Shown: piece by piece, positions 21,854 through 35,523 of the stretch | Position numbering within the stretch: the first letter of the stretch is position 1 | Layout of the letters: every line of letters starts with the position of its first letter | Assembly (NCBI GenBank): GCA_016932855.1 | Contig: JAFGCB010000025.1 | Coordinates: 13,868-77,867 of the forward strand | Origin: Candidatus Omnitrophota bacterium | GTDB lineage: Bacteria > Omnitrophota > Gorgyraeia > Duberdicusellales > Duberdicusellaceae | DNA length: 64,000 nucleotides | Reading direction: 5' to 3' | Position numbers and translations under genes: made by a program | Notes under the pieces: generated by a model | The model's database searches: none | The model's input: the letters and a program-made list of their open reading frames with translations, nothing else | Told to the model about the DNA's origin: nothing

Positions 21854-24800
21854 ATGAAGACGGGGAAAACAAAGACTAAAAAGAATATTTTTTTATGGGG
21901 AATTATTTTTACGGGATTTCTTTTGGCGAATTTAAACTATGCTTATGCCTGGATGCCTAATTCTTTAGGCAATCCTGAGCTTCTTCAGGAAACCAACCAG
22001 CTTGCCCGCATGCAGCAAGTCATGGTTGATCTAGGTTATTTTAGAGTCATAGAAATAAAAAATCACCATATTCAATTGGGTGATAAGCAGCTGGAGGTTA
22101 TAGAAGCCTACAAGCGCGGCGAGGACGGCAAATTACATCATGTTTTGATTTCATCATTGAACGACGATTGCAGGAATCCGTCTCGTTTAGTTCAGGCGGT
22201 TCTTGCTAATGAGGATTTGCGCAATCTCATTACAGGCGCGCGGGGAAATAATGAAATTAAATTTTGGCTTGAGGTAGCATCTGCGTTAGTGGCTAGCAGC
22301 GACGAAGCTCTTATGGCTGAGTATGGTTCAAAACCAATACCTAAGCTTTACAGGGATATCTTAACCCAGAACGGAAAACCGGCACCGGATTATATTCTTA
22401 ATGAAAACAGGCTTCCTAGAGGAGCAATTTTGGTGGCGGTAGCTGATTTAGGGGTTGTAGACGAGGATGTAATTAATTTAGACGATACAGAAGTGGAAAC
22501 AGATTATAATTTCCCGCCTATAATTATTACCGGTAATCGGGAGCCTTTACCTGAAAATAAAGGCGGCTTGCGCCAGAGACACCCCGGGCCTACTCCGAAT
22601 ATTTTAATAGAAGAAATAGCCTTGACCGATTGGAACGTGGAAGCGCAAACCTATACGGTTGAGGTAGGATTTAAGAGCCAGGCTTTAGTATTTTCCAATC
22701 TAAAGGCAAGTGAAATACCCGAATTTGTCGAATTTGCAGAAGTCTATCTTGACTATCTTAACAATAAACAGAATTATATACAGCGAGGAAGAGAAATGCT
22801 GGGTGACAAAACCGATTTTACCAACGCTAAGATTGAAGGCATAATCGGGCTTGTTGATCATCTTAATCAGACAGGCAATGAATTTTTCGCTTCCAGGAAA
22901 GAAAACTTACTTTCGATTTTAGAGGGAAGTTCTGTGCATGACGGTGATTATACTGTCGGTCAATTTTACACTTCTGTTGATCAGACCGATAAGGTTTTCG
23001 CGGTATTTGAAGGCGAAATTCAACTTGTTTTCACCGGCGATGACGGCCAGCAGAAAAAAGTTTCGGTAAGCAGGGAATATGTAGTAGGCCTTCTTGCTCT
23101 TTGCGATATATCCGGCCGGGCAGCGTATCAGAACGATAATTTCTTCACCCAGGATGCCGGAAGAATTGCTGAAGGCCTTTTCGAGAGAGCTAAAGACGGG
23201 GATTATGCGTCTTTAAGCGAGCTCAGTGAGTTATATCATGATCCTGATACGCAGTACCTGGAAAGGCCGGGCGGCCAGGCCAGCGGTGCAGCAGATGGCA
23301 GTTTTCGCGTAGACGGCTCAGGCGCGACAGAAGACAGATGGCAGATTGACTTAGAGAATATAGGTTTTGATGGAATTGCTCTTTACAGAGTCGAAGCTAG
23401 AAGCGCCGGGGACGCAAATCACTTGGATGTGGCAATTGAGGCTGACGCACAGAGTAATATCCCTGCCGGCGCTAACGCGGAAGAGGGAGATTACTTAGGT
23501 AAGGCAGTCCTTACAGCTTCAGGCGCGCTTAACGGCCATGAAATTGTCACAAAAATTAACGGCTTAAGAATTACTGAACAGGGATTTACCTTTGAAGCAT
23601 TCCAAAGAGAAACCCAAGGCTATGTGGATAATGATTATTTTTGGGTAAATGCTCAGGTAGACCGTTCGACTAACCCCGAGAACTTTACCGGTCATGCGAC
23701 AGGCGAGTATAACGTGGGTCACATAAGCCGTGTTTTTGACGTAAGCGTTAATGCTGACAGCGGAGCAATCGAGGAAGTTAAAGAATTCTTAAGAGACAAT
23801 CTTCCTGATATAGATGAGGAAACAGCCATACAGATAGCAGAGGATGCTTACTCGAATATTGCAGCTTTAGTTGAGCGTAAATGGGAAAGCGGCGCTAATA
23901 TAACTTCCGAGGATATATACAATTGTATAGTTAACGCTATTGTGGATAACACTGACTACACCCGCAGCGAAGTCGGGGATATGGCGTCTGATCTTCGGCA
24001 GTTTGCCGACGCCATGTTTGAGCGGATAGTAACAACTAACTATGTTGAGACCCCCCGAGACAGCCGCACTTTACTTGATGATAAAAGAGATATAGGTATT
24101 GTGCTTGGTAAAGCATTTTCCGGAGAGTTAGAAATTCACGCCGTAGGCATTGAGGTAGACGGACGGGTGCAGGTCGGCTTTACAGTTGCAGAGGGAGGAG
24201 TTAAAGTCGGTCCTATGCAAGTAGTTGCCGCACCTACCATTACTTTACCGAAACCGGATATGAGTTTTACAGCTTTTCTTGAAAACGCTCATTTAACCGG
24301 CGCGGTTATAGGCTGGAACAGAAGTGAAAATATCGGTGACTTGAGTCAGAGTTTACTTGCCAGTTCGCAGGGTAAATTTAGTTCATCGCAGCTAGCAACT
24401 TACAGCCGATATTTGCGTGATTACATTGATGAAGCTAAGAATCCATCTTTTGGCTGGTCTGGCTTTGTAGGGTATTTAGGCAGGCCTGCTGAGGGTGATT
24501 ACGGTGTTTCCGGAGACAGGATGTTAAGTCAAGGCCTTGCCAAGGATGCCTATATAGCCACGCTTATCTACGGAAAATCAGCGGGTCTTAACAAAGAGAC
24601 TAAAGAGGGGCTTACTACCTTTTTAAGCTTTTGTTTAAACGATGAACTTGATTTTTCCGTTCCTCATGCGGATATAATAGCTCAGGTAGAGCAGCGACTT
24701 GAGAACCTCAATCGCGAGATAACCCTAAAGGATGTAAAGCAGGCTTTTAGTGAAGCTTTGGTGAATTTAGGTTTAGAAGGTCATGAGGCAGAGCTTTTTG

Positions 24801-25150
24801 AATCAGAGGCTTTTTCGCCTATGGCAAATTTAATTATTAAAGATATAAACACCCTGGTATACTTCGGGGTTAGTTTCATAAACCGGGATAATTCTAATTC
24901 CTTGCAGTTTAACGCGGGTTCTTCAAAAGCTTTTGGAAGCTTACTTCTTTCAACCAACCCCAGAGATAATTTCAACTTCTCAGCAGGGTTTGGCGTAAAA
25001 TTCAGTGATACTACGATCAGGTTTGGGTTGAATAAAGAAGGCAAGGGCCAGATTGATGCAGCAAGAAGTTTTGATAATGGAACAGTTTTAAGCGGCACAG
25101 CAACGCCCGGTCTTTATATGCTTCGTCTCGGTATACCCCTCAATCCATAA
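21854..25150 (+). CDS. Large (1098 aa) secreted/surface protein, unknown function
   Basis: Clean ORF with an SD (AAAGGAGG) and a signal peptide. It is Asp/Gly-rich, and its C-terminal ~200 aa have alternating amphipathic strands, possibly a beta-barrel or anchoring domain. No motif I can name. Confidence 0.6.
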   Translation: MKTGKTKTKKNIFLWGIIFTGFLLANLNYAYAWMPNSLGNPELLQETNQLARMQQVMVDLGYFRVIEIKNHHIQLGDKQLEVIEAYKRGEDGKLHHVLISSLNDDCRNPSRLVQAVLANEDLRNLITGARGNNEIKFWLEVASALVASSDEALMAEYGSKPIPKLYRDILTQNGKPAPDYILNENRLPRGAILVAVADLGVVDEDVINLDDTEVETDYNFPPIIITGNREPLPENKGGLRQRHPGPTPNILIEEIALTDWNVEAQTYTVEVGFKSQALVFSNLKASEIPEFVEFAEVYLDYLNNKQNYIQRGREMLGDKTDFTNAKIEGIIGLVDHLNQTGNEFFASRKENLLSILEGSSVHDGDYTVGQFYTSVDQTDKVFAVFEGEIQLVFTGDDGQQKKVSVSREYVVGLLALCDISGRAAYQNDNFFTQDAGRIAEGLFERAKDGDYASLSELSELYHDPDTQYLERPGGQASGAADGSFRVDGSGATEDRWQIDLENIGFDGIALYRVEARSAGDANHLDVAIEADAQSNIPAGANAEEGDYLGKAVLTASGALNGHEIVTKINGLRITEQGFTFEAFQRETQGYVDNDYFWVNAQVDRSTNPENFTGHATGEYNVGHISRVFDVSVNADSGAIEEVKEFLRDNLPDIDEETAIQIAEDAYSNIAALVERKWESGANITSEDIYNCIVNAIVDNTDYTRSEVGDMASDLRQFADAMFERIVTTNYVETPRDSRTLLDDKRDIGIVLGKAFSGELEIHAVGIEVDGRVQVGFTVAEGGVKVGPMQVVAAPTITLPKPDMSFTAFLENAHLTGAVIGWNRSENIGDLSQSLLASSQGKFSSSQLATYSRYLRDYIDEAKNPSFGWSGFVGYLGRPAEGDYGVSGDRMLSQGLAKDAYIATLIYGKSAGLNKETKEGLTTFLSFCLNDELDFSVPHADIIAQVEQRLENLNREITLKDVKQAFSEALVNLGLEGHEAELFESEAFSPMANLIIKDINTLVYFGVSFINRDNSNSLQFNAGSSKAFGSLLLSTNPRDNFNFSAGFGVKFSDTTIRFGLNKEGKGQIDAARSFDNGTVLSGTATPGLYMLRLGIPLNP

Positions 25151-25564
25151 GCTGGATAAAGGCGTGTAATTATCGCAGCCAGAATCAGCTTGAAAAGGGT
25201 TAAGGCCTGTGAAACAGGATGTTCTCGCAGGCCTTAAACCATTGTTAATTAAAGGGGACGCTTCTATTTTTTCACAATGAATATAAGCGCCCCCTTTTAC
25301 AAAATCCTTCTTTACACCCCCAAAAAAACCATATATAATAAATTTTCGCAAATATTCCCAAGGGTTTTCGTGTCTTTCGATGAATTCCGGAGGTTTTTAG
25401 CAATTGCAGGCACCTCGGCTTTAATAGCCTTAGTGCCGTCACTTGCCAGCGATAACTTAGTAGGCAAGTGATCCCGAGCAAAGCGAGGGAACTTTGAAAG
25501 GCATCTCGCTTCGCTCGATGCCGAAAAAAATAAAGGAAAGGGAACCTGATATTCTTCATTTTTT

Positions 25565-25640
25565 TCGGGAGGTGGCGCAGTCTGGATTAGCGCACTTGAA
25601 TGGGGTTCAAGGGGTCGTGGGTTCGAATCCCACCCTCCCG
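25565..25640 (+). tRNA. tRNA-Pro (anticodon GGG)
   Basis: Manual fold: acceptor CGGGAGG/CCTCCCG, D-stem GCGC, anticodon stem CTTGA/TCAAG with loop ATGGGGT (U33, GGG, G37), T-arm GTGGG TTCGAAT CCCAC, discriminator A. CCA is not encoded. Confidence 0.8.
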
Positions 25641-25726
25641 ACATAGAAAATAAATATTAAAAATCAAAAATCAAAAACTGATTTTTGAGTTTGTCCTTTA
25701 AGGGACATAGCGCAAGGGAGGTTGTT

Positions 25727-26083
25727 ATGGCTTACGAAGGTCAGGAAAGGAGAAAACATAAGCGGATAAAGGTTAGTTTCGTGGTAAGCTACAGGCCGTT
25801 GGAGAAAGAAGATGACGCGGATTTGTCACAGACAAAAAACTTTTCGCAAGGCGGGATGCTGCTTACTACTAATAAGGCCTTTGGTCCGGGAACACTCCTT
25901 AAGATATTTATACGAGTGCCGCTGGTCAAGGGAAAGATTTACCTTATCGGCCAGGTTTTAGAATCAAAGGAAATAGTTAAAAATCTCATTTACGAAACAA
26001 GGATTGCCTTTCAGAATCTTGAAGATGAGATTGAGCGGATACTGCATGAAACCGTAGGGTCGTTTTTAGAAGGGAAAAAGTAA
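25727..26083 (+). CDS. Single-domain PilZ protein (c-di-GMP receptor family)
   Basis: RKHKR (RxxxR) and NFSQGG (D/NxSxxG) PilZ signature motifs. Internal ATG after an AAGGGAGG SD. Its stop abuts the hom start. Confidence 0.55.
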   Translation: MAYEGQERRKHKRIKVSFVVSYRPLEKEDDADLSQTKNFSQGGMLLTTNKAFGPGTLLKIFIRVPLVKGKIYLIGQVLESKEIVKNLIYETRIAFQNLEDEIERILHETVGSFLEGKK

Positions 26084-26084
26084 C

Positions 26085-27374
26085 ATGCTTAAGAAGAGGA
26101 TAGGCATAATAGGCATAGGTACCGTGGGCAAGCCTTTTTTGGTGCAGCTTAAAAAAAGCCTTTCTTACATAAAAGCTAATCTGGAATTGGATATCAAGAT
26201 ATCTAAGGTTTGCGACATAAATCCCGAAATCAAAAAACTTTCCGGCAAGCTTAATATACCTTTTGTTTCTAGGGCAGAGGATCTTATTTCCGATCCTCAG
26301 ATAGACATCGTGATCGAGCTTATCGGCGGGCTTCACCCGGCCAAAGAATACGTTATTTCCGCCCTCTACCAAGGCAAGGACGTAATCACGGCAAATAAAG
26401 CTCTTTTAGCTAATTACGGGGCTGAGATTTTTAACCTTGCATATAAATTAGGACGGACGGTGAAGTTCGAGGCAGCGGTAGCCGGAGGGGTGCCTTTAAT
26501 AAAGAATGTTTCGGAGGTTTTAAGGTTTGGGAAGATCAGAAATGTTTACGGCATCTTAAACGGCACCACTAATTTTATACTCAGCCAGATGAGCAGGTAT
26601 AGCAAGTCTTTTAGTGAGGTTTTAGAAGAAGCAAAGCAGAAAGGCTTTGCCGAAAAGGATTCATCTCTGGATATAAACGGAACAGACTCTCTCCATAAGA
26701 TATCAATTCTTTGTTTTCTCTGTTTCGGCGCTTTTGTCAAATTGAAAGACGTTATAGTCGAAGGCATAGATAAAATCACTCTTGCAGATATCCTTTATGC
26801 CCAAGAGCTGGGTTTTTCCATAAAGTTGCTGGCAATAGCAAAGAAGGATACTTCAAAAATAGAAGTGCGGGTCCATCCTACTTTGATTTCTCAAGATCAC
26901 CCTTTAGCTAAGACCGGCGGCGTGCTTAACGCCATATTTATCAATACCGACATTGCCGGGAATTTTCTCCTTTCGGGTCTAGGCGCCGGCGGTAAGTCTA
27001 CTTCGCTTTCAGTCTTAAGCGATGTTTTAAGCATATGCAATCAGAAAAACCCTTGGGTTTTAAAAGGACAGAAAAAAAGGAGTTTTTTCAGACGCAAGGA
27101 GGATTTAAGCTGTCGGTACTACCTGCGATTTCAAGCCTTAGACCGTCCCGGTGTTTTGGCCAAGATATCCAAGATTTTAGCTGATTTGGGAATAAGCATT
27201 GCTTCGGTGACCCAGAAGGAAAGGGGTCTGCCTTTATCTAAGTCGAAGTTTGTCCCTATAGTCATGCTTACTCATAAGGCCAAAGAGTCCAGTATCGTTA
27301 AAGCCAGGCAAAGAATAGATAAGCTTTCAGATCTGAAACCCCCTATTCAAATAATTCGGATAGAAAGCCTGTAA
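26085..27374 (+). CDS. hom: Homoserine dehydrogenase
   Basis: 429 aa with an N-terminal NAD-binding GIIGIGTVG, NGTTNFIL and a C-terminal ACT-like domain. Confidence 0.85.
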   Translation: MLKKRIGIIGIGTVGKPFLVQLKKSLSYIKANLELDIKISKVCDINPEIKKLSGKLNIPFVSRAEDLISDPQIDIVIELIGGLHPAKEYVISALYQGKDVITANKALLANYGAEIFNLAYKLGRTVKFEAAVAGGVPLIKNVSEVLRFGKIRNVYGILNGTTNFILSQMSRYSKSFSEVLEEAKQKGFAEKDSSLDINGTDSLHKISILCFLCFGAFVKLKDVIVEGIDKITLADILYAQELGFSIKLLAIAKKDTSKIEVRVHPTLISQDHPLAKTGGVLNAIFINTDIAGNFLLSGLGAGGKSTSLSVLSDVLSICNQKNPWVLKGQKKRSFFRRKEDLSCRYYLRFQALDRPGVLAKISKILADLGISIASVTQKERGLPLSKSKFVPIVMLTHKAKESSIVKARQRIDKLSDLKPPIQIIRIESL

Positions 27375-27426
27375 AAGGCTAAAAATTAAAAACCGGCAGA
27401 TAACTTTAAAAAGGCAAAAGTTTAGT

Positions 27427-28530
27427 ATGTCTATGAAGATAGAGGAGTATAAGGGAGTCATAGATAGATATTTCAAATATCTGCCCGTATCCAATAAGAC
27501 CCCGGTGATAAGTCTTTTGGAAGGCGATACCCCTTTAATCCCGGCCTACAAACTATCAAATCAATTAGGCAAGAAGTTTGAGGTTTTTTTAAAGTACGAA
27601 GGTTTAAATCCTACCGGCTCATTTAAGGATAGAGGCATGACCGTCGCTGTGTCAAAGGCTAAAGAGCAGGGTTCGAAAGCGGTAATCTGCGCTTCTACGG
27701 GCAATACCTCAGCTTCAGCTTCAGCCTATGCGGCCAGAGCAAATTTAAAATCAATAGTTCTTATACCTAAAGGCGCGATTGCTTTGGGGAAGCTTGCTCA
27801 GGCCCTGATACACGGAGCGTGTGTCTTGCCGGTAAAGGGAAACTTCGATGACGCTTTCAGGCTTGTCAAAGAGATTTCTCAGGATTATCCGGTACGTCTG
27901 GTCAATTCTATAAACCCCCATCGGATAGAAGGTCAAAAAACCGCCTCCTTCGAGATTTGCGATGCCTTAAAAGACGCTCCTGATTTTCAGATACTGCCGG
28001 TCGGTAATGCCGGCAATATTACCGCTTATTGGAAAGGATATAAAGAATATAAATCCTTGGGAAAAATCCGAAAACTTCCTGTGATGTGCGGTTTTCAAGC
28101 CCAAGGTTCAGCTCCTATAGTCAAAGGACACCCGATTAAAAATCCCAAAACAATTGCAACTGCCATAAAAATCGGAAACCCCGCCAGCTGGAAAAGCGCA
28201 GAAGCGGCAAGGGACGAGTCCAAAGGCCTTATCGATACGGTCAGCGACAGAGATATTATAGAAGCTTATAAGTTTTTAAGCTCTCAAGAAGGTGTTTTTG
28301 TTGAACCGGCTTCAGCCGCGTCAGTAGCCGGGCTTTTTAAGCTTAAAAAGTTAGGTTATTTTTCTAAGAAAAGTAAGTTTTATTTGAGTTATTCGAAAAC
28401 TATTAAGATTGTATGCATTTTAACCGGCCATGGTTTAAAAGACCCCGATATCGCTATTAAAAATATAAAAGAGCCGAAAGCAGTCGAACCCGATTTGAAA
28501 AAAATCGTAAAACTCCTTAAATTGAAATGA
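27427..28530 (+). CDS. thrC: Threonine synthase
   Basis: PLP-lysine motif GSFKDRGM and a GNTSAS glycine loop, 367 aa. Confidence 0.9.
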   Translation: MSMKIEEYKGVIDRYFKYLPVSNKTPVISLLEGDTPLIPAYKLSNQLGKKFEVFLKYEGLNPTGSFKDRGMTVAVSKAKEQGSKAVICASTGNTSASASAYAARANLKSIVLIPKGAIALGKLAQALIHGACVLPVKGNFDDAFRLVKEISQDYPVRLVNSINPHRIEGQKTASFEICDALKDAPDFQILPVGNAGNITAYWKGYKEYKSLGKIRKLPVMCGFQAQGSAPIVKGHPIKNPKTIATAIKIGNPASWKSAEAARDESKGLIDTVSDRDIIEAYKFLSSQEGVFVEPASAASVAGLFKLKKLGYFSKKSKFYLSYSKTIKIVCILTGHGLKDPDIAIKNIKEPKAVEPDLKKIVKLLKLK

Positions 28531-28609
28531 CGATGTCTAGAGTGCAGTTTTTAAACATTTCCCTTTTCTGTTATCTGTGCTCTATTTTCTGTAATCTAAC
28601 GAAGTTATC

Positions 28610-29803
28610 ATGAAGTACATAATTGTTGTTCCTGACGGCGCGGCTGATTATCCTTGCCCGGAGCTTGACGGAAAGACCCCCTTAGAGGTTGCTGATACCC
28701 CTAACATGGATTATCTTTCCAAGGAAGGAATTATCGGGCGGGTAAAAACCATCCCTAAAGGCTTTCCGGCTTCAAGTGACGTAGCCAATCTTTCTCTTTT
28801 AGGATTCGATCCTCAAAAATACTATACCGGTCGCGGCCCGCTTGAAGCAGCGAATATGGGCATAGAGCTCGGATCTAAAGATATAGCCTTCAGGTGCAAT
28901 TTGGTAACCGAGGTTGACGGCAAGCTGGCAGATTACAGTGCCGGTCACATAACCAACAGAGAAGCCCACATATTAATAGATGCTCTTAATAAGGAACTGG
29001 GAACTAAACAGATAGAATTCTTTCCGGGAGTAAGCTACAGGCATTTGATGATTTTCAGAGACGGATACGAGCTTGGTTTTCAGGATGTAAGGACATTCCC
29101 GCCTCATGATATCATGGGGTCTTTGGTAAAAAAACACTTACCTTCCGGAAAAAACGCTAATCTATTGGTAGAACTCATTGATAAATCAAAGCAGGTTTTA
29201 TTTAAGCACGAGATAAATACTGTAAGGGTTGATTTAAAAGAAAACCCGGCTAATTCTATCTGGCTTTGGGGCCAGGGAATAAAGCCTCAAATTCCCTTGT
29301 TTAAAGATAAGTTTGGAAAAACCGGAGCGGTTATTTCAGCGGTGGACTTAATTAAGGGAATCGGAAAGATTATCGGCTTTAAGGTGTTAGAAGTCGAAGG
29401 AGCAACTGGTTTTTATGATACAAATTATGAAGGAAAAGCAAAAGCCGCCCTTAAGGTTTTAGAAGAAGTGGATCTGGTTTATGTCCACATCGAAGCCACT
29501 GATGAGGCAGGTCATAACCAGGATTTGAGAATGAAAATAACCTGCCTTGAGCGGATAGACAGGTTTGTTTTAGGGACCATACTTAAAGAGAGAGATTTGG
29601 AATCTACCAGAATACTCGTTGTCCCCGATCATTTTACGCCTTTATCAAAAAGAACTCATACGCCGGAACCGGTTCCGTTTGTTATAGCGGGAGGCAAGAT
29701 ACCAAAGTCAATAACCGCAAAATTTTCTGAAGAAGAAGCCCAGCGTTCAAGCCTCTATTTTGAACAGACTTCGCTTCTTATGGAATATCTGGTTAAAGAA
29801 TAG
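28610..29803 (+). CDS. ApgM-type cofactor-independent phosphoglycerate mutase family protein. Its position suggests the predicted non-orthologous homoserine kinase.
   Basis: N-terminus IIVVPDGAADYPCPELDGKTPLEVADTPNMDYL is typical of the archaeal-type iPGM / metalloenzyme superfamily. It sits between thrC and lysC. Confidence 0.7.
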   Translation: MKYIIVVPDGAADYPCPELDGKTPLEVADTPNMDYLSKEGIIGRVKTIPKGFPASSDVANLSLLGFDPQKYYTGRGPLEAANMGIELGSKDIAFRCNLVTEVDGKLADYSAGHITNREAHILIDALNKELGTKQIEFFPGVSYRHLMIFRDGYELGFQDVRTFPPHDIMGSLVKKHLPSGKNANLLVELIDKSKQVLFKHEINTVRVDLKENPANSIWLWGQGIKPQIPLFKDKFGKTGAVISAVDLIKGIGKIIGFKVLEVEGATGFYDTNYEGKAKAALKVLEEVDLVYVHIEATDEAGHNQDLRMKITCLERIDRFVLGTILKERDLESTRILVVPDHFTPLSKRTHTPEPVPFVIAGGKIPKSITAKFSEEEAQRSSLYFEQTSLLMEYLVKE

Positions 29804-29876
29804 CGAAGCGCCAGATAGGCCGGTACCGACAACTTAACATATAGCACTAAACATATAAAATAGTTAGAGTAGCATA

Positions 29877-31451
29877 ATGAACAGCGCATTTTTACTTTTA
29901 ATTGTTCTGGCGGCTCTTTTCTTGGGCTATAAAATTTACGGAAGCGTAATCTTTCGGCTTTTCGGTCTAAATGACGCAAGGCCTACCCCGGCCCACGCTA
30001 AAAATGACGGCTTTGATTACGTTCCGGCTAAAAACTGGTTTATTCTTTTCGGGCACCATTTCTCTTCTATTGCCGGCGCCGGGCCGATAGTAGGTCCGAT
30101 ACTTGCTGTTTCGCTTTGGGGCTGGGTGCCTTCGGTGATATGGATTGTTTTCGGTTCGATTTTTATCGGAGCAGTGCATGATTTTTCGGCTTTGATAGTT
30201 TCAGTAAGGTCCGGCGGCCGTTCCATCGCCGATGTTTCCCGGGAAACTGTTTCCAAAAGAGCCCGGGTCCTTTTTTTGATTTTTGTCTGGATCGCCTTAG
30301 CTCTTGTTATTACAGTATTCGCCAGTATATGCGCCGATACTTTTGTTGCCGAGCCGAAAATAGCAACCTCCAGCCTGGGACTTATACCTTTGGCCCTTAT
30401 TGTAGGGTTTTTGATTTACAGAGCTAGACTGCCGCTTTTCCCGGCGACTATCATCGGCATTACCGGCATAATTCTTCTTATTTTTCTGGGGGAGAGGGTT
30501 CATTTTACTTTAGGTATAGATAACTCTAAGAATCTTTGGATGATAATTCTTTTTGTTTATGCCTTTTTCGCTTCAATTATTCCGGTAAATATTTTACTTC
30601 AGCCCAGAGACTATATTTCCAGTTTTCTTTTATTCGCCGGTTTGATTCTGGGCAGCGCAGGCATACTTATAACCAGGCCGCCAATGGTTGGCCCGGCTTT
30701 CGTTTCTTTTAAGAGCTCTCAAGGCAATCTTGTGCCCATGCTTTTTGTTACTGTTGCTTGCGGGGCTATTTCGGGATTCCACTCTTTGGTTGCTTCAGGG
30801 ACGACTTCTAAACAGCTTCCTAATGAATCCGCGGCTAAAAAAGTGGGTTTTGGGGGGATGCTCCTTGAGGGTTTTTTGGCAACAATAGCCCTTATAACTG
30901 TAAGCGTAGCTTTTAGCAAGGCTGGTCCGGTTACTGTTTTTTCGCAAGGGTTCGGCCAGATAACCCGGCCTTTGCTGGGTAATTACGGGGCATTTTTAGC
31001 CACGCTTATTTTAAACGCTTTTATATTAACTACTCTTGATACCGCTACCAGAATAAACCGTTATATAACAGAAGAGCTTCTGGGATTAAAGAACTATTTT
31101 CTTTCCACTCTTTTGGTTGTTTTATTCAGCGCCTATTTGGCCTTTTCAGGGGGATGGAAGATTCTCTGGCAGATGTTCGGTATTTCCAACCAGTTAGTCG
31201 CGGCTTTAGCTTTAATTGTTTTGACGGTCTGGCTTATGAATAAAGGAAAGAATTTCTTTTATCTGTTAATCCCGGCCGTATTCATGCTCTTCGTTACTTT
31301 AAGCGCCTTGTTTTTAAAGCTTTCAGGCTTTATCGCCGATAAGAATGCGGGCTTAATTGTTGTTACTTTATGCTTACTTTTATTAGGAATTTTTGTGGCA
31401 GTAGAAGGAGCCCTGGCTATCGGAAGAAAAAAGAAGGGGATTTATGCCTAA
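29877..31451 (+). CDS. cstA: Carbon starvation protein A family transporter (CstA, short form)
   Basis: N-terminal DGFDYVPAKNW...FGHHFSSIAGAGPIVGPILA...GAVHDF matches the conserved CstA block. Multi-TM. Confidence 0.75.
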   Translation: MNSAFLLLIVLAALFLGYKIYGSVIFRLFGLNDARPTPAHAKNDGFDYVPAKNWFILFGHHFSSIAGAGPIVGPILAVSLWGWVPSVIWIVFGSIFIGAVHDFSALIVSVRSGGRSIADVSRETVSKRARVLFLIFVWIALALVITVFASICADTFVAEPKIATSSLGLIPLALIVGFLIYRARLPLFPATIIGITGIILLIFLGERVHFTLGIDNSKNLWMIILFVYAFFASIIPVNILLQPRDYISSFLLFAGLILGSAGILITRPPMVGPAFVSFKSSQGNLVPMLFVTVACGAISGFHSLVASGTTSKQLPNESAAKKVGFGGMLLEGFLATIALITVSVAFSKAGPVTVFSQGFGQITRPLLGNYGAFLATLILNAFILTTLDTATRINRYITEELLGLKNYFLSTLLVVLFSAYLAFSGGWKILWQMFGISNQLVAALALIVLTVWLMNKGKNFFYLLIPAVFMLFVTLSALFLKLSGFIADKNAGLIVVTLCLLLLGIFVAVEGALAIGRKKKGIYA

Positions 31452-32670
31452 ACATAAGCTTGTTGTCCAAAAATACGGAGGAACGTCTTTAGCTACTCCG
31501 GCGAGAATCGAGAAAGTAGCCGACAGGATAATTTCTTATATAAAGAGAGGCTATGATATTATGACGGTAGTTTCAGCAATGGGCCATACAACTGATGAGC
31601 TTATCGAGCTTGCGAGAAAAATAAATCCTTATCCCAGCGAAAGGGAGCTAGATATGCTGATTTCTACCGGAGAGCAGATTTCTTCATCTCTTTTAGCCAT
31701 GGCTTTGCATAAGCGAAAAGCTGACGCGGTTTCTTTTACCGGCGTGCAAGTAGGGATTCTTACCGACAAATATCATACTAAAGCCAGGATAATTGAAATA
31801 GATGCTTCGCGGATTAAAAAAGCCTTAAGGCAGAACAGGATAGTGGTGGTTGCCGGTTTTCAGGGCAGGACTTGTGATGAAGATATAGCTACTTTGGGAA
31901 GAGGCGGTTCTGATCTTTCCGCGGTTGCCTTGGCTTCAGTTCTTAAAGCGGATGTCTGCGAAATATATACTGATGTTGAAGGTATATATACCGCTGATCC
32001 GCGGGTTGTAAAAGGGGCCAGGAAATTAGATTGCATAAGCTTTGACGAGATGTTAGAATTAGCCTCAAGAGGCGCCCAGGTTATGCAGACCAGGGCCGTA
32101 GAGGTCGCGAAAAAATACAATATCCCTTTGCATGTTCGCTCGAGTCTTTCAAACAAGGAGGGGACCATAATCATGGAAAGAAAGCCTTCATTGGAGGAGC
32201 CGGTAGTAAGAGGGGTGACTTTGACCGAGAGAGAAGCAAAGATTACGGTTTGCCAGGTTCCTGATAAGGCCGGGATGGCCGCCAAGATATTCTCCGAATT
32301 AGCGGCGAGTAATCTAAACATAGATATGATTGTCCAGAACGTAAGCCACAAGAGGATCACCGATATATCGTTTACCGTCGGAAAAGATGAAGCTTACGCG
32401 AGTTTAGCTACCACAAAGAGAGTCGCCAAGAAAATAGGCGCAGCTAATGTATTATATGACGAGGATATAGCTAAAGTTTCTATTGTAGGCATTGGAATGA
32501 AGGCTCACTCGGGAGTCGCTAATGCGATGTTTAAGGCTTTAGCCAAAGCAAAGATAAATATTGAGATGATATCTACTTCGGAGATAAGTATTTCCTGCGT
32601 TGTCAGGCGAAAACAAGGTAAATCCGCGGCAAGGGCTCTGCACAGGGCTTTCGGGCTTGGTTCGTCATGA
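31444..32670 (+). CDS. lysC: Aspartate kinase
   Basis: KYGGTSL N-terminus, 408 aa with C-terminal ACT domains. Start overlaps the cstA stop. Confidence 0.9.
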   Translation: MPKHKLVVQKYGGTSLATPARIEKVADRIISYIKRGYDIMTVVSAMGHTTDELIELARKINPYPSERELDMLISTGEQISSSLLAMALHKRKADAVSFTGVQVGILTDKYHTKARIIEIDASRIKKALRQNRIVVVAGFQGRTCDEDIATLGRGGSDLSAVALASVLKADVCEIYTDVEGIYTADPRVVKGARKLDCISFDEMLELASRGAQVMQTRAVEVAKKYNIPLHVRSSLSNKEGTIIMERKPSLEEPVVRGVTLTEREAKITVCQVPDKAGMAAKIFSELAASNLNIDMIVQNVSHKRITDISFTVGKDEAYASLATTKRVAKKIGAANVLYDEDIAKVSIVGIGMKAHSGVANAMFKALAKAKINIEMISTSEISISCVVRRKQGKSAARALHRAFGLGSS

Positions 32671-34244
32671 AGAGTAAAATTTTGTTGTACGACACTACCT
32701 TAAGGGATGGGGCCCAGTCAGAAGGGATATCTTATTCTTTAAAGGATAAGGTCCGCATTGCCAAAAGACTGGATTCTTTCGGAATTGACTTTGTCGAAGG
32801 GGGCTGGCCTTACTCTAATCCTAAAGACAAGGAGTTTTTCGAATATTTCAAAAAAAGAGGCTTAAGAAAAGCCAAGCTGGTAGCTTTCGGCTCAACGGCT
32901 TATCCTCATGTCAGGGCGAATAAGGACAAGAACCTTTTGAGCCTGCTTAAGTCAGGCACCGAGTTCATTACTCTATTTGGAAAAAGCTGGGATTTGCAGG
33001 TTAAAGACGTATTAAGGACATCTTTGGAGGAGAATTTAAGGATTATACATGATTCAATAAGTTTTCTTAAGAAAAAAGGGCGTCATGTTTTTTTTGACGC
33101 CGAGCATTTCTTTGACGGCTATAAAGAGAATCCTTCCTACGCTATTAAGTCGTTGAAAGTAGCCCAGGAAGCCGGAGCGGATTTCATTATCTTATGCGAT
33201 ACCAACGGCGGCAGCTTAACTTCTCAGGTAACGGCAGTTATAGGAAAGGTTAAAGAAGGGATTAAGGTTGATTTAGGTATTCATACTCACAATGATTGCG
33301 GTCTTGCAGTGGCTAATTCCATAGCGGCGATTGAATGCGGCTGCACTCAGGTGCAAGGGACATTTAACGGCTACGGAGAGCGTTGCGGAAACGCTGATTT
33401 GTCAACGATAATTCCTATTCTGAGAATAAAATTGAATAAAAGCACGATTTCAGACCGGCAGCTAAGAAAGCTTACCGAAGTTTCGCATTTTGTAAGCGAG
33501 GTAAGCAATATGAAGCATCCTGATAATCACCCTTATGTGGGAAGGAGCGCTTTTGCCCACAAAGGAGGAGTCCACATAAATGCTATGGTAAAAAACCCCA
33601 AGGCCTACGAGCATATTGACCCGGACCTGGTAGGAAATCAACGAAGGCTTTTGGTTTCCGAGGTTTCAGGCAAGACCTCGATTGTCATGGCCGCTAAGAC
33701 TATGTTCCATGAACTAGATAAGAAATCAAAGAAGACCGAGAAGATCCACCGCCTTCTTCAAAGATTGGAGAAGCAAGGATACCAGTTTGAGGTTGCCGAT
33801 GCTTCTTTTAAGATTATTCTGGAGAGGCAGCTTAAGAAATATAAAAAGTTTTTTAGTCTTCAGGGTTTCAGGGTGATTATCGAGAAGAGGCAAGACGGCG
33901 CCATTATTTCCGAGGCGGCTATTAAAATGAAAGTTGCCGGCAAGCTGCAGCATACCGCTGCCGAAGGAGACGGTCCGGTCAACGCCCTGGACAACGCCTT
34001 AAGAAAGGCCTTGCTTAAATCTTATCCGGCTTTAGCAAGAATGCATCTGTCCGATTTTAAAGTCCGGGTTTTAGACGAGGAGAGAGGGACGGCTGCCAAG
34101 GTAAGGGTTTTGATTGAGTCCCAGGATGAAGAGGAATCTTGGTCAACCGTAGGGGTTTCCGAGAATATTATTGAAGCTTCCTGGCAGGCTCTTGCAGATT
34201 CCGTGGAGTATAAGCTTCTTAAGGAATCCAAGAAGTTAGAGTAA
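32667..34244 (+). CDS. (R)-citramalate synthase / 2-isopropylmalate synthase family (LeuA-CimA) with C-terminal LeuA-dimer regulatory domain
   Basis: LYDTTLRDGAQ, HTHNDCGLAVANS and 525 aa length are typical of CimA. Confidence 0.8.
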   Translation: MKSKILLYDTTLRDGAQSEGISYSLKDKVRIAKRLDSFGIDFVEGGWPYSNPKDKEFFEYFKKRGLRKAKLVAFGSTAYPHVRANKDKNLLSLLKSGTEFITLFGKSWDLQVKDVLRTSLEENLRIIHDSISFLKKKGRHVFFDAEHFFDGYKENPSYAIKSLKVAQEAGADFIILCDTNGGSLTSQVTAVIGKVKEGIKVDLGIHTHNDCGLAVANSIAAIECGCTQVQGTFNGYGERCGNADLSTIIPILRIKLNKSTISDRQLRKLTEVSHFVSEVSNMKHPDNHPYVGRSAFAHKGGVHINAMVKNPKAYEHIDPDLVGNQRRLLVSEVSGKTSIVMAAKTMFHELDKKSKKTEKIHRLLQRLEKQGYQFEVADASFKIILERQLKKYKKFFSLQGFRVIIEKRQDGAIISEAAIKMKVAGKLQHTAAEGDGPVNALDNALRKALLKSYPALARMHLSDFKVRVLDEERGTAAKVRVLIESQDEEESWSTVGVSENIIEASWQALADSVEYKLLKESKKLE

Positions 34245-34247
34245 GAC

Positions 34248-34598
34248 ATGCCTAACCGACGAAAATTTGTCCGTTTTGAGGTTGAGGATATCCTGGAGGT
34301 AAGGCCGCTTTCGGAAGTCGCCAGGAAATTTAAAAGCGTATCAAAAGACTTCAGCGTAATCGGCATATGCTTTTTTTCCGACTTTAAATGGGAAAAAGGC
34401 CAGGTGCTTTTAATTGAATATTTTTTACCGGAGGATCTTGAGGCCGTAAAGCTCAAAGCCGGCGTTGTTTGGTCTGAGTTTATCGATGATAAAAAAGGAT
34501 TTCTTGTGGGCGTAGAGATCCTGGACCTTGAAGACAAACACGCTGATAAATTCACCAATTACTACTTTCGAAAAGTAAGAGAACGTTTTTTTGAGTAA
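34248..34598 (+). CDS. Single-domain PilZ protein
   Basis: RKFVR (RxxxR) and DFSVIG (DxSxxG) motifs. Starts 3 nt after the cimA stop. Confidence 0.5.
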   Translation: MPNRRKFVRFEVEDILEVRPLSEVARKFKSVSKDFSVIGICFFSDFKWEKGQVLLIEYFLPEDLEAVKLKAGVVWSEFIDDKKGFLVGVEILDLEDKHADKFTNYYFRKVRERFFE

Positions 34599-34664
34599 TT
34601 AGAAATTTCAGCTTTTCAAAAGTCTCCCGCCGCCTGAACAGATAAACCTATTTTAAGCTAAAAA

Positions 34665-35468
34665 ATGTTTATAAGAATAACAGTCTTATTGTTAGTTTTT
34701 CTGGTTATTCTCTTGGGATATTTTAGGTATTATGAAAAGAAATGCATATATTTTCCTACCAAAGAGATTTCAGCTACCCCCAGGGATTTAGGGCTTGAAT
34801 ACGAAGATATTTATTTTCATACCTCCGACGGCATAGGGCTTAACGCCTGGTTCATTACCCGGCCCGATGCTTCTCTTACCATCCTTTTTCTCCACGGCAA
34901 TGCCGGGAATTTGAGCCATAGATTAGAGGTATTGCAAATATTGCATCCTTTGCAAACTAATATATTTATTGTTGACTGGCGGGGCTACGGCAAGAGTCAA
35001 GGCACTCCTTCGGAAGAAGGACTTTATCTTGACGCCTTAGCTTCTTATGATTATTTGGTGAAAGAAAAAGGCATACCCGCGGACTCCATTATAGTCTACG
35101 GTAAGTCCCTGGGCGCCAATATTGCCGTTGATTTAGCTTCGCGGGTCAAGATAAAAGCTTTGATTAGCGATAGCGGATTTACCAGCGCCTATGATATGGC
35201 CAGGCATATTTTCCCTTTCATACCGGTTAAGCTCTTTATTACCGTTAAATTCGACGCCTTAACCAAGATAAAAAACATTTATTGTCCTAAGTTGATAGTT
35301 CATTCTCCGCATGATGAGATGATTCCTTTTTGGATGGCAAAAAAACTTTTTGAAGCCGCTGCGGCCCCTAAAGAGCTTTACCAGCTCGGCGGCTCTCATA
35401 ACGAGATGATGTTTATAAACAGAAAAGAGTTTATAGAGCGGCTCGGTAAGTTCCTGTGCAGTCTCTAA
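34665..35468 (+). CDS. Alpha/beta-hydrolase fold protein
   Basis: N-terminal TM segment, GKSLG nucleophile elbow and an HGNAGN oxyanion region. Confidence 0.7.
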   Translation: MFIRITVLLLVFLVILLGYFRYYEKKCIYFPTKEISATPRDLGLEYEDIYFHTSDGIGLNAWFITRPDASLTILFLHGNAGNLSHRLEVLQILHPLQTNIFIVDWRGYGKSQGTPSEEGLYLDALASYDYLVKEKGIPADSIIVYGKSLGANIAVDLASRVKIKALISDSGFTSAYDMARHIFPFIPVKLFITVKFDALTKIKNIYCPKLIVHSPHDEMIPFWMAKKLFEAAAAPKELYQLGGSHNEMMFINRKEFIERLGKFLCSL

Positions 35469-35523
35469 ATAGCCAGTCCTAAAAACCTTGACTAGGCCTA
35501 CCTTATATTGTAAAGTATTTCCT

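What the first reader, a model, noticed from the sequence alone, without database searches (positions are those of the whole stretch)
25727..34598. Thr/Lys/Ile biosynthetic operon bracketed by two stand-alone PilZ-domain genes
The two PilZ ORFs (RxxxR plus D/NxSxxG motifs) are, respectively, fused stop-to-start with hom at the 5-prime end and 3 nt after cimA at the 3-prime end. The apparent transcription unit is therefore PilZ-hom-thrC-apgM-cstA-lysC-cimA-PilZ. Coupling c-di-GMP receptor proteins to an amino-acid biosynthetic operon is not a standard arrangement. It could indicate c-di-GMP-responsive control of aspartate-family flux, or PilZ-like proteins acting as protein-level regulators of Hom or LysC.
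Basis: partly seen in the sequence, partly recalled or inferred. Interest (0 to 1): 0.5.

Follow-up and report, generated by a model that had tools for sequence, protein, structure and literature searches.

The report
PilZ gene welded to homoserine dehydrogenase
In this uncultured Omnitrophota bacterium, a small c-di-GMP-sensor-type (PilZ) gene sits directly in front of the homoserine dehydrogenase gene, and this pairing is kept in nearly all relatives, which suggests an unreported link between this signalling molecule and amino-acid synthesis; the second PilZ gene at the far end of the operon is only a recent neighbour.

Summary
Two stand-alone PilZ genes (25727-26083 and 34248-34598) pass the Pfam PilZ threshold. 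Both carry RxxxR and D/NxSxxG, model as PilZ barrels, and flank hom-thrC-homK-cstA-lysC-cimA with gaps of 1 and 3 nt.

The two ends are not equivalent.

PilZ1 belongs to a distinct PilZ family that is almost always followed at once by hom:
- 68 of 70 metagenome loci show this, usually with overlapping or near-abutting stop and start codons.
- The pairing holds where the rest of the operon differs.
- PilZ-linked Hom proteins form one clade, with a single nested loss.
- The conserved core is tRNA-Pro(GGG)-PilZ1-hom-thrC.

PilZ2 is a different PilZ lineage. It follows cimA only in close relatives (59% identity or more). All five context look-ups of 45-59% identical relatives place it upstream of DUF362 and AddAB-like genes instead.

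Best reading, inferred and not shown: PilZ1 is a c-di-GMP-dependent protein partner of Hom, possibly of Hom and ThrC, analogous to GlnK-AmtB. PilZ2 has no specific tie to CimA.

The gene called "apgM" is HomK/ThrB2, a homoserine phosphotransferase.

I found no paper describing a PilZ-hom link. This is a new variant of a known kind, of moderate interest, and testable in vitro.

The parts
25311..25339 (+). Sigma-70-like promoter (TTTACA, 17 nt spacer, TATAAT), about 225 nt upstream of tRNA-Pro. It is the candidate promoter for tRNA-Pro and the PilZ1-hom operon.
   Evidence: It is the best promoter-like site in 25000-35600, matching 11 of 12 positions. Both hexamers align with L043 and L048. Its function is not shown.
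25566..25642 (+). tRNA-Pro (anticodon GGG), 84 nt upstream of the PilZ1 start codon.
   Evidence: Detected by ARAGORN and by Rfam RF00005 at 59.8 bits. A tRNA-Pro(GGG) lies just upstream of the PilZ1-family gene in 57 of 87 loci, mostly 13-35 nt away.
25727..26083 (+). PilZ1: a stand-alone PilZ-domain protein of 118 aa from the hom-linked PilZ family. It is the first cistron of the operon.
   Evidence: Pfam PilZ 34.9 bits against a threshold of 22.5. A GGGAGG Shine-Dalgarno sequence lies 5 nt before the ATG. R9xxxR13 is invariant and N38xS40xxG43 nearly invariant. Family-specific invariant blocks are FVVSYR, DLSQTKN, GGMLLTTN and LIYETRI. The AF2 model has 6 strands plus a C-terminal helix at pLDDT 69. 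Foldseek top hits are MotI, Alg44 and MrkH PilZ domains.
26085..27374 (+). hom: homoserine dehydrogenase with a C-terminal ACT domain. Its start codon is 1 nt after the PilZ1 stop.
   Evidence: Pfam Homoserine_dh 186.5 bits, NAD_binding_3 and ACT. NCBIfam NF004976 433.9 bits.
27427..28530 (+). thrC: threonine synthase.
   Evidence: TIGR00260 322 bits against a cut-off of 167. It follows hom directly in 40 of 41 related loci.
28610..29803 (+). homK (ThrB2): a homoserine phosphotransferase.
   Evidence: TIGR02535 526 bits against a cut-off of 446.3. The family complements E. coli thrB (preprint 10.1101/2024.10.14.618325; earlier status in PMC7311316).
29877..31451 (+). CstA-family transporter of 524 aa. 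It overlaps the lysC start by 8 nt.
   Evidence: Pfam CstA 473 bits. It scores only 252.8 bits against the 1188 cut-off of the E. coli CstA equivalog. It occupies the same position in L001, L002, L003, L032, L036, L042, L043, L048, L054, L096 and L097.
31444..32670 (+). lysC: monofunctional aspartate kinase with ACT domains.
   Evidence: NF005155 569.5 bits. Pfam AA_kinase and ACT_9.
32667..34244 (+). cimA: citramalate synthase, the pyruvate route to isoleucine.
   Evidence: TIGR00977 734 bits against a cut-off of 450.
34248..34598 (+). PilZ2: a stand-alone PilZ-domain protein of 116 aa from a different PilZ lineage. It starts 3 nt after the cimA stop.

Best explanation
PilZ1 is a canonical single-domain PilZ protein and a probable c-di-GMP receptor. 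Its gene is the first cistron of a conserved core, tRNA-Pro(GGG)-PilZ1-hom-thrC, that a large clade of Omnitrophota has kept intact.

The most likely mechanism is this. PilZ1 is made together with homoserine dehydrogenase through tightly coupled translation. When loaded with c-di-GMP it binds Hom, or a Hom/ThrC assembly. It then changes flux from aspartate semialdehyde into the threonine, methionine and isoleucine branch.

The logic is the same as for other small signal proteins encoded next to their targets, such as GlnK-AmtB. It also matches stand-alone PilZ adaptors such as MapZ-CheR1, but with a biosynthetic enzyme as the target.

PilZ2 is a separate c-di-GMP-receptor-type protein. Its position after cimA is a recent, lineage-specific placement at the operon end, not evidence of a CimA or LysC partnership.

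Shown here: domain identity, motif conservation, gene order and its recurrence.
Inferred, not shown: c-di-GMP binding, co-transcription, the physical contact and the direction of regulation.
For: Identity:
- Both ORFs exceed the Pfam PilZ threshold.
- Both have PilZ-like models.
- RxxxR and the G of the second motif are invariant in the 20-member PilZ1 alignment, and N38 and S40 are conserved in at least 90% of members.
- Across 85 unique family members, RxxxR is kept in all but one and N/DxSxxG in 70.

Linkage:
- A metagenome scan anchored on PilZ1 found 383 relatives. Of the best 80, 70 had at least 200 nt of downstream DNA.
- In 67 of those, hom follows. L078 adds a 68th by its Hom N-terminus.
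- The gaps are mostly -4 to +8 nt.
- hom is followed by thrC in 40 of 41 loci, whereas thrC is followed directly by homK in only 1 of 31.
- The pair persists when the downstream genes change: 2-hydroxyacid dehydrogenase and glnA in L035, argS-recJ in L037 and L040, a non-thrC gene in L038, and coaB, TPM and LemA inserts elsewhere.
- The pair also persists when the upstream genes change.

Hom-anchored, unbiased sample:
- PilZ1 lies directly upstream of hom in L001, L002, L004 and L008.
- In an NJ tree, all PilZ-linked Homs form one clade. The PilZ-less L003/L032 lineage is nested inside it, where an integrase now sits upstream in L003.

Co-evolution:
- PilZ1 distances track Hom distances: r = 0.93, and partial r given ThrC = 0.67.
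- They do not track ThrC once Hom is controlled for: partial r given Hom = 0.12. This is weak evidence.

Background:
- GGDEF domains and many small pilZ genes are reported in Omnitrophota (10.1101/2023.11.21.568195).
Against:
- Every gene in the 64 kb window is on the + strand with short gaps, so adjacency alone is cheap in this genome.
- Adjacency could partly reflect inherited synteny. gpsA and tRNA-Pro also tend to stay upstream.
- Two related loci, L059 and L093, have a SAM hydroxide adenosyltransferase instead of hom after the PilZ1-family gene.
- One lineage (L003/L032) keeps the whole operon without PilZ1, so PilZ1 is dispensable for the pathway.
- About 17% of family members replace the motif serine with Gly, Ala or Cys, which may weaken c-di-GMP binding.
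- No diguanylate cyclase gene is visible in the window.
- The mirror-tree result can arise from similar evolutionary rates alone.
- The 80 loci are the closest of 383 hits. The remaining 303 contexts were not seen.
Confidence: 0.42

Rival explanations
1. PilZ1 is a c-di-GMP receptor that acts on an unrelated target, such as type II/IV secretion or pilus ATPases, or the giant surface proteins typical of Omnitrophota. Its gene is kept at the head of the hom operon only because that position gives a suitable expression level, driven by a tRNA promoter and linked to growth rate.
For: Small pilZ genes are common in Omnitrophota and are reported next to giant genes and secretion loci. In L036 a T2SSE ATPase lies upstream. 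All known stand-alone PilZ adaptors act on motility, secretion or signalling proteins (established knowledge). tRNA-Pro and a conserved promoter precede PilZ1.
Against: The only invariant neighbour is hom. Upstream genes vary: gpsA in 46 of 69 loci and about 15 other families. The stop/start overlaps with hom point to co-ordinated production. PilZ1 distances follow Hom rather than ThrC.
Confidence: 0.27
2. The adjacency is inherited synteny with no functional meaning. A PilZ gene was inserted once between tRNA-Pro and hom in an ancestor, and it has simply not been separated in these compact, co-directional genomes.
For: PilZ-linked Homs are monophyletic, implying a single origin. The genome is compact and entirely co-directional. 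The neighbouring gpsA and tRNA-Pro are also often retained.
Against: Within the same loci, other junctions broke repeatedly. thrC-homK is direct in only 1 of 31 loci, and cstA and coaB come and go. PilZ1-hom held in 68 of 70 loci across Hom divergence down to about 43% identity. PilZ1 itself is under strong constraint, with 26 invariant columns among 20 sequences.
Confidence: 0.13
3. PilZ1 is a c-di-GMP-independent accessory or regulatory subunit of Hom. The PilZ fold would have been co-opted purely as a protein-binding module, as in the non-binding PilZ of Xanthomonas and Pseudomonas.
For: The motif serine is replaced by Gly, Ala or Cys in about 15 of 85 members. Family-specific invariant blocks outside the nucleotide motifs (SYR, LLTTN, YETR) suggest a conserved protein interface. 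No GGDEF gene is in the window.
Against: RxxxR is retained in all but one member, and N/DxSxxG is canonical in 70 of 85, including the window copy. Non-binding PilZ proteins typically lack these motifs (established knowledge). GGDEF domains exist in the phylum.
Confidence: 0.1
4. Both PilZ proteins work together on the operon, with PilZ2 regulating CimA or LysC and PilZ1 regulating Hom, so that c-di-GMP controls the whole aspartate family and isoleucine pathway.
For: The full eight-gene arrangement recurs in L036, L042 and L043. cimA-PilZ2 overlaps or abuts in L036 and L041-L046 while the downstream genes differ. PilZ2 motifs are intact.
Against: PilZ2-family members at 45-59% identity lie between his/rib genes and DUF362 plus UvrD/PDDEXK genes, far from cimA. 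This holds in all five look-ups of that range (L127-L132). L032 and L019 have cimA followed directly by valS. PilZ1 and PilZ2 are unrelated lineages. Many PilZ1-hom loci have no lysC or cimA nearby.
Confidence: 0.08

Closest known systems
Stand-alone PilZ adaptor proteins: MapZ/PA4608-CheR1, HapZ/PA2799-SagS, FlgZ-MotC, and MotI/DgrA-MotA (the last has two domains)
   Same: A small PilZ barrel with a C-terminal helix, intact RxxxR and D/NxSxxG motifs, no output domain, and a presumed action by binding a partner protein when loaded with c-di-GMP. The closest solved structures for both models are MotI (5vx6) and other PilZ domains such as Alg44, MrkH, PA0012 and PA4608.
   Different: Known partners are motility, chemotaxis, secretion or signalling proteins. 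Here the conserved genomic partner is an amino-acid biosynthetic dehydrogenase. Sequence similarity to any solved PilZ is marginal, with best E = 0.11 to MotI. The partner and ligand binding are inferred only.
The glnK-amtB gene pair, and PII-NAGK
   Same: A roughly 12 kDa signal-transduction protein is encoded next to, and co-expressed with, the protein it regulates, and the pairing is conserved across wide divergence. PII-NAGK shows that a small signal protein can gate an amino-acid biosynthetic enzyme (established knowledge).
   Different: The fold and the ligand differ: PII binds ATP, ADP and 2-oxoglutarate, whereas PilZ binds c-di-GMP. The GlnK-AmtB interaction is experimentally proven, whereas PilZ1-Hom is not.
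Feedback control of Hom and LysC through ACT domains
   Same: It acts at the same pathway node. The window's Hom and LysC carry ACT domains, which is the standard allosteric control by threonine and lysine.
   Different: ACT control is built into the enzyme and is driven by the end product. PilZ1 would add an external input from a second messenger.
Small pilZ genes downstream of giant 'archaeovorin' genes in Omnitrophota (West-Roberts et al., bioRxiv 10.1101/2023.11.21.568195)
   Same: The same phylum, the same kind of small stand-alone pilZ genes, and the same proposal that they sense c-di-GMP made by GGDEF domains in the phylum.
   Different: Those pilZ genes sit next to giant surface or secretion genes. 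The hom-linked family and its tRNA-Pro-PilZ-hom-thrC core are not mentioned in the passages retrieved.

Membership tests
PilZ domain (Pfam PF07238), c-di-GMP receptor | Scores above the Pfam gathering threshold | tested here: met
   PilZ1 scores 34.9 bits and PilZ2 38.9 bits against a threshold of 22.5, each covering nearly the whole model.
PilZ domain (Pfam PF07238), c-di-GMP receptor | An N-terminal RxxxR motif and a D/NxSxxG motif | tested here: met
   PilZ1 has R9xxxR13 and N38xS40xxG43. PilZ2 has R5xxxR9 and D34xS36xxG39. The arginines and the motif glycine are invariant in both ortholog alignments; S36 is also invariant in PilZ2, and N38 and S40 of PilZ1 are conserved in at least 90%. 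In the wider PilZ1 family the serine is Gly, Ala or Cys in about 15 of 85 members.
PilZ domain (Pfam PF07238), c-di-GMP receptor | A six-stranded beta-barrel fold, usually with a C-terminal helix | tested here: met
PilZ domain (Pfam PF07238), c-di-GMP receptor | Binds c-di-GMP | not testable with these tools
   This needs DRaCALA, ITC or MST on purified protein, with R-to-A motif mutants as controls.
Stand-alone PilZ adaptor acting on a partner protein (MapZ or HapZ type) | c-di-GMP-dependent physical binding to a defined partner | not testable with these tools
   Only genomic evidence exists: hom follows in 68 of 70 loci, and PilZ1 distances correlate with Hom distances. No complex prediction tool was available.
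Single operon PilZ1-hom-...-cimA-PilZ2 | Co-transcription, with no internal terminator and one promoter | tested here: inconclusive
   The gaps are 1, 52, 79, 73, -8, -4 and 3 nt. Terminator-like hits number 12, no more than the shuffled expectation of 12.0, and none lies in the intergenic gaps between operon genes. A promoter-like site at 29834-29861 precedes cstA. All genes in the window share one strand. RNA data are needed.
HomK/ThrB2 homoserine phosphotransferase (TIGR02535) | Scores above the TIGR02535 cut-off and lies in a hom/thrC gene context | tested here: met
   It scores 526.2 bits against a cut-off of 446.3 and lies directly after thrC. The activity of the family is shown by thrB complementation in preprint 10.1101/2024.10.14.618325. 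It also passes NF003242, 'cofactor-independent phosphoglycerate mutase', so the name rests on context plus TIGR02535.
Citramalate synthase CimA (TIGR00977) | Scores above the equivalog cut-off | tested here: met
   It scores 734.2 bits against a cut-off of 450. The isopropylmalate synthase models all fall below their cut-offs.

The most novel reading that the evidence does not exclude
PilZ1 forms a c-di-GMP-dependent complex with homoserine dehydrogenase, or with a Hom-ThrC assembly, and gates entry into threonine, methionine and isoleucine synthesis. That would be the first PilZ-mediated control of an amino-acid biosynthetic enzyme. It would tie the attachment or lifestyle messenger of these ultra-small, possibly host-dependent bacteria directly to anabolic flux. 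Expression would come from a tRNA-Pro promoter shared with the operon.
Probability: 0.35. Interest if true: 0.75.

Novelty: new variant of a known kind. Interest (0 to 1): 0.55.

Why it matters
c-di-GMP is known mainly as a switch for motility, adhesion, secretion and the cell cycle. Direct control of core amino-acid biosynthesis through a PilZ adaptor has not been described; full-text searches for PilZ with homoserine dehydrogenase, threonine biosynthesis or amino-acid biosynthesis found nothing relevant.

A gene pair kept in about 97% of sampled relatives gives a concrete and cheap hypothesis. Two small soluble proteins can be expressed in E. coli and tested for ligand binding, complex formation and enzyme kinetics. 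This matters because the phylum is uncultured and its regulation is otherwise inaccessible.

The work also warns that the eye-catching 'bracket' is half coincidence. It corrects the apgM label to HomK. It exposes a conserved tRNA-Pro-PilZ-hom-thrC core.

Tried and rejected
- I looked for a riboswitch or leader RNA, including c-di-GMP riboswitches, in 25100-25760. Rfam found only the tRNA at gathering thresholds, and only chance-level hits at E up to 10.
- I looked for c-di-GMP turnover genes in the window. No GG[DE]EF ORF was found. The HDIGK hit at 54928-56295 reads by eye as a multi-pass membrane protein with an HD-type motif; it was not scanned against Pfam on its own. The window therefore says nothing about c-di-GMP synthesis.
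- I tested whether PilZ1 and PilZ2 are paralogues from a local duplication. This is rejected: 25% identity and hhalign probability 15.6%.
- I tested whether PilZ-less Omnitrophota have a cryptic PilZ upstream of hom. They do not. Those genomes have trpA, then a coiled-coil membrane protein, then hom. L003 has an integrase and L032 has unrelated genes.
- I looked for Hom residues that changed in the lineage that lost PilZ1. Five positions changed (P85K, G97K, A109S, G112K, A301S). This is one lineage only, so it is kept as a lead and not used as evidence.
- The mirror-tree partial correlation is reported only as weak support.
- A Foldseek search against afdb50 was not available.
- The sequence search of the PDB with the PilZ1 profile gave only MotI at E = 0.11.
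- The terminator and promoter scans gave counts equal to shuffled expectation, so they cannot define the transcription unit.

Full report
**What is in the window**

The region lies in a 64 kb stretch in which every ORF of 100 aa or more that is not overlapped by a longer ORF is on the + strand. The two flanking proteins are 100% identical to proteins annotated from a Candidatus Omnitrophica/Omnitrophota MAG contig of 184,839 bp.

Gene order:

| Coordinates | Feature |
|---|---|
| 25566-25642 | tRNA-Pro(GGG) |
| 25727-26083 | PilZ1 |
| 26085-27374 | hom, with ACT domain |
| 27427-28530 | thrC |
| 28610-29803 | PhosphMutase-family gene |
| 29877-31451 | cstA-family transporter |
| 31444-32670 | lysC |
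| 32667-34244 | cimA |
| 34248-34598 | PilZ2 |
| 34665-35468 | alpha/beta hydrolase |
| 35488-38304 | valS |

The gaps between PilZ1 and PilZ2 are 1, 52, 79, 73, -8, -4 and 3 nt.

**Are they PilZ domains?**

Both score above the Pfam threshold: 34.9 and 38.9 bits against 22.5.

PilZ1 has R9xxxR13 and N38xS40xxG43. PilZ2 has R5xxxR9 and D34xS36xxG39. The arginines and the motif glycine are invariant in alignments of 20 and 14 homologues; S36 of PilZ2 is invariant too, N38 and S40 of PilZ1 are conserved in at least 90%, and PilZ2 position 34 is D or N.

Sequence similarity to any solved structure is marginal, at E = 0.11 to MotI.

PilZ1 and PilZ2 are not recent duplicates: 25% identity and hhalign probability 15.6%.

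The PilZ1 family has strongly conserved blocks beyond the nucleotide motifs: FVVSYR, DLSQTKN, GGMLLTTN and LIYETRI. These suggest a second conserved surface.

**Correction to one gene name**

The gene called 'apgM' passes TIGR02535 at 526 bits against a cut-off of 446.3. GapMind papers describe this family as the alternative to homoserine kinase. The evidence was first genetic only (PMC7311316). E. coli thrB complementation has since been shown, and the name HomK proposed (10.1101/2024.10.14.618325).

The operon therefore encodes a complete route from aspartate to threonine (lysC, hom, homK, thrC; asd is not here), plus the citramalate entry to isoleucine.

**Does PilZ1-hom recur?**

*Sample anchored on hom (unbiased for PilZ).* I took GTDB species representatives and scanned them with HMMs built from the PilZ homologues.
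- L001, L002, L004 and L008 have a PilZ1-family gene directly before hom.
- L003 and L032 carry the same hom-thrC-homK-cstA-lysC-cimA operon without it.
- A second, distant group labelled Omnitrophota has trpA, then a coiled-coil protein, then hom.

*Samples anchored on PilZ1.* Context look-ups show the pair surviving changes in everything else:
- L035: PilZ-hom-thrC-2-hydroxyacid dehydrogenase-glnA.
- L037 and L040: PilZ-hom-thrC-argS-recJ.
- L038 and L039: PilZ-hom-(unknown)-homK.

*Metagenome scan with the family alignment.* It found 383 coding relatives, of which the best 80 were kept.
- Of 70 loci with at least 200 nt downstream, 67 have hom next. L078 adds one more on inspection of the Hom N-terminus.
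- Two closely related loci, L059 and L093, have a SAM hydroxide adenosyltransferase instead.
- The gaps are mostly -4 to +8 nt.

*Other junctions in the same loci.* hom is followed by thrC in 40 of 41 loci. thrC is followed directly by homK in only 1 of 31, because coaB-like, nucleotidyltransferase-like, TPM and LemA genes are inserted. PilZ1-hom-thrC is therefore the stable core, and the rest is fluid.

*Phylogeny.* In an NJ tree of 87 Hom sequences, all PilZ-linked Homs form one clade with L003/L032 nested inside (L008 was printed as PilZ-less by a 35%-identity cut-off in the script, but it carries a PilZ1-family gene by HMM, E = 3.9e-26). This implies a single gain and one observed loss.

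*Family size.* There are 28 representatives at 50% identity with E <= 1e-30, and 304 with E <= 1e-10. Some are tandem double-PilZ proteins.

**Does cimA-PilZ2 recur?**

It does in close relatives. In L036 and L041-L046, PilZ2 overlaps or abuts the cimA stop while the downstream genes differ: hydrolase-valS, tRNA-Arg with DUF748, or HxsD with radical SAM.

A profile search extended the family to 85 clusters at 43-81% identity. All five look-ups of members at 45-59% identity place the gene elsewhere. It sits after his, rib, MazG or radical-SAM genes and before DUF362 and a UvrD-helicase/PDDEXK pair, with no cimA nearby.

L032 and L019 run from cimA straight into valS.

The cimA-PilZ2 junction is thus shallow and lineage-specific. 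One caveat: I cannot prove that the distant members are orthologues rather than paralogues.

**Upstream of PilZ1**

A tRNA-Pro(GGG) lies just before the PilZ1-family gene in 57 of 87 loci, mostly 13-35 nt away. gpsA is the next gene upstream in 46 of 69 loci.

In the window, a strong sigma-70-like site (TTTACA, 17 nt, TATAAT; 25311-25339) lies about 225 nt before the tRNA. Its hexamers align in L043 and L048. No comparable site lies between the tRNA and PilZ1.

One transcript carrying tRNA-Pro, PilZ1, hom and the following genes is plausible but untested.

No Rfam family matches the leader.

**Mechanism**

*Shown:* two canonical-looking PilZ proteins, and a near-obligate, translationally tight PilZ1-hom(-thrC) unit maintained across Hom divergence to about 43% identity.

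*Inferred:* PilZ1 binds c-di-GMP and then Hom, by analogy with stand-alone PilZ adaptors and with the glnK-amtB logic, in which conserved pairing of a small signal protein with its target foretold a physical complex (established knowledge).

*Weak extra support:* PilZ1 pairwise distances correlate with Hom distances (r = 0.93; partial r = 0.67 controlling for ThrC) but not with ThrC once Hom is controlled for (0.12). Similar evolutionary rates could produce this on their own.

*Background:* GGDEF domains and many small pilZ genes are reported for the phylum.

*Against:*
- No cyclase gene is in the window.
- The motif serine is replaced in about 17% of family members.
- One lineage dispenses with PilZ1.
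- Two loci pair it with another gene.
- Compact co-directional genomes make adjacency cheap.

**Comparison with what is known, and novelty**

Both proteins are members of the PilZ domain family; all sequence and fold criteria were tested and met, while ligand binding was not testable here.

They resemble single-domain adaptors such as MapZ and HapZ. However, the conserved genomic partner is a biosynthetic enzyme, which I did not find described.

The only Omnitrophota pilZ observation I found concerns genes next to giant proteins.

I rate this a new variant of a known kind. The hom-linked PilZ family is a genuine and testable lead. The 'bracketing' by two PilZ genes is a feature of a small sub-clade and should not be over-read.

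**Verdict**

- Interest is 0.55.

Noticed in passing
window 25566-25642 and 25311-25339; L002, L035, L036, L038, L040, L043, L048: tRNA-Pro(GGG) sits immediately upstream of the PilZ1-family gene in 57 of 87 related loci, typically 13-35 nt away. A sigma-70-like promoter about 225 nt before the tRNA has hexamers that align in the two relatives L043 and L048. The tRNA and the amino-acid operon may share one transcript.
   Followed up: partly
window 28610-29803: The gene read as apgM belongs to TIGR02535 (HomK/ThrB2), the non-orthologous replacement of homoserine kinase. It also passes an NCBIfam model named cofactor-independent phosphoglycerate mutase, so automatic names will conflict.
   Followed up: yes
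window 29877-31451; same position in L001, L002, L003, L032, L036, L042, L043, L048, L054, L096, L097: A short CstA-family transporter (524 aa, far below the E. coli CstA equivalog cut-off) is embedded between homK and lysC and overlaps lysC by 8 nt. It recurs there in many relatives and is absent in others. CstA-type proteins import pyruvate or peptides, and cimA consumes pyruvate, so a substrate-supply link is conceivable.
   Followed up: partly
L065 220-990, L108 5241-5999, L109 5602-5985, L124 1990-2349 and about 8 other loci: Some relatives carry an extra PilZ gene, with one or two PilZ domains and 25-33% identity to PilZ1, inserted between the tRNA and the hom-linked PilZ. This gives tandem PilZ genes in front of hom.
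   Followed up: partly
L059 1560-2365 and L093 210-1015: In two closely related metagenome contigs, the PilZ1-family gene is followed with a 4 nt overlap by a SAM hydroxide adenosyltransferase (PF01887) instead of hom. These are the only clear exceptions among 70 loci, and the gene is still connected to methionine/SAM metabolism.
   Followed up: partly
L127-L132, around locus position 10001-10357: More distant PilZ2-family genes sit in a conserved block: alaS, hisD, hisB, hisH, hisA, then rib genes in some loci (L128-L130), then PilZ, DUF362 (Fe-S) and a UvrD-helicase/PDDEXK (AddAB-like) pair. Some overlap the DUF362 start, which points to a different possible partner for that lineage.
   Followed up: partly
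L054, L056, L057, L068, L081, L115, L118, between thrC and homK: A coaB-like (DFP) gene is inserted between thrC and homK in many relatives. It is often accompanied by a nucleotidyltransferase-like gene, a TPM-domain membrane protein with a glycine-rich tail, and LemA.
   Followed up: no
window 21854-25150: The gene before the tRNA encodes a 1098 aa protein with no significant Pfam match; the best hit is a sub-threshold phage baseplate-wedge match at E = 0.04. Omnitrophota are reported to carry very large unannotated proteins followed by pilZ genes, but I did not test any relation.
   Followed up: no
window 54928-56295: A 455 aa ORF whose sequence reads by eye as a multi-pass membrane protein carries an HD-type motif (HDIGK). 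I take it to resemble the PgpH family, which in Listeria degrades c-di-AMP, but I did not scan it against Pfam on its own. No GGDEF-motif ORF is present anywhere in the window.
   Followed up: partly
L036 2272-3906: In the closest relative, the T2SSE-type secretion ATPase upstream of the tRNA has an N-terminal extension with RxxxR-like and SxSSSG-like strings that looks PilZ-like by eye. Pfam reported only the ATPase domain.
   Followed up: no
Hom alignment, window Hom residues 85, 97, 109, 112, 301 (L003 and L032): In the lineage that lost PilZ1, five Hom positions that are otherwise at least 93% conserved in PilZ-linked Homs are changed. Four of them lie within residues 85-112 of the NAD-binding domain, and three become lysine. 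This is a single lineage, so it is only a lead for a possible contact patch.
   Followed up: partly
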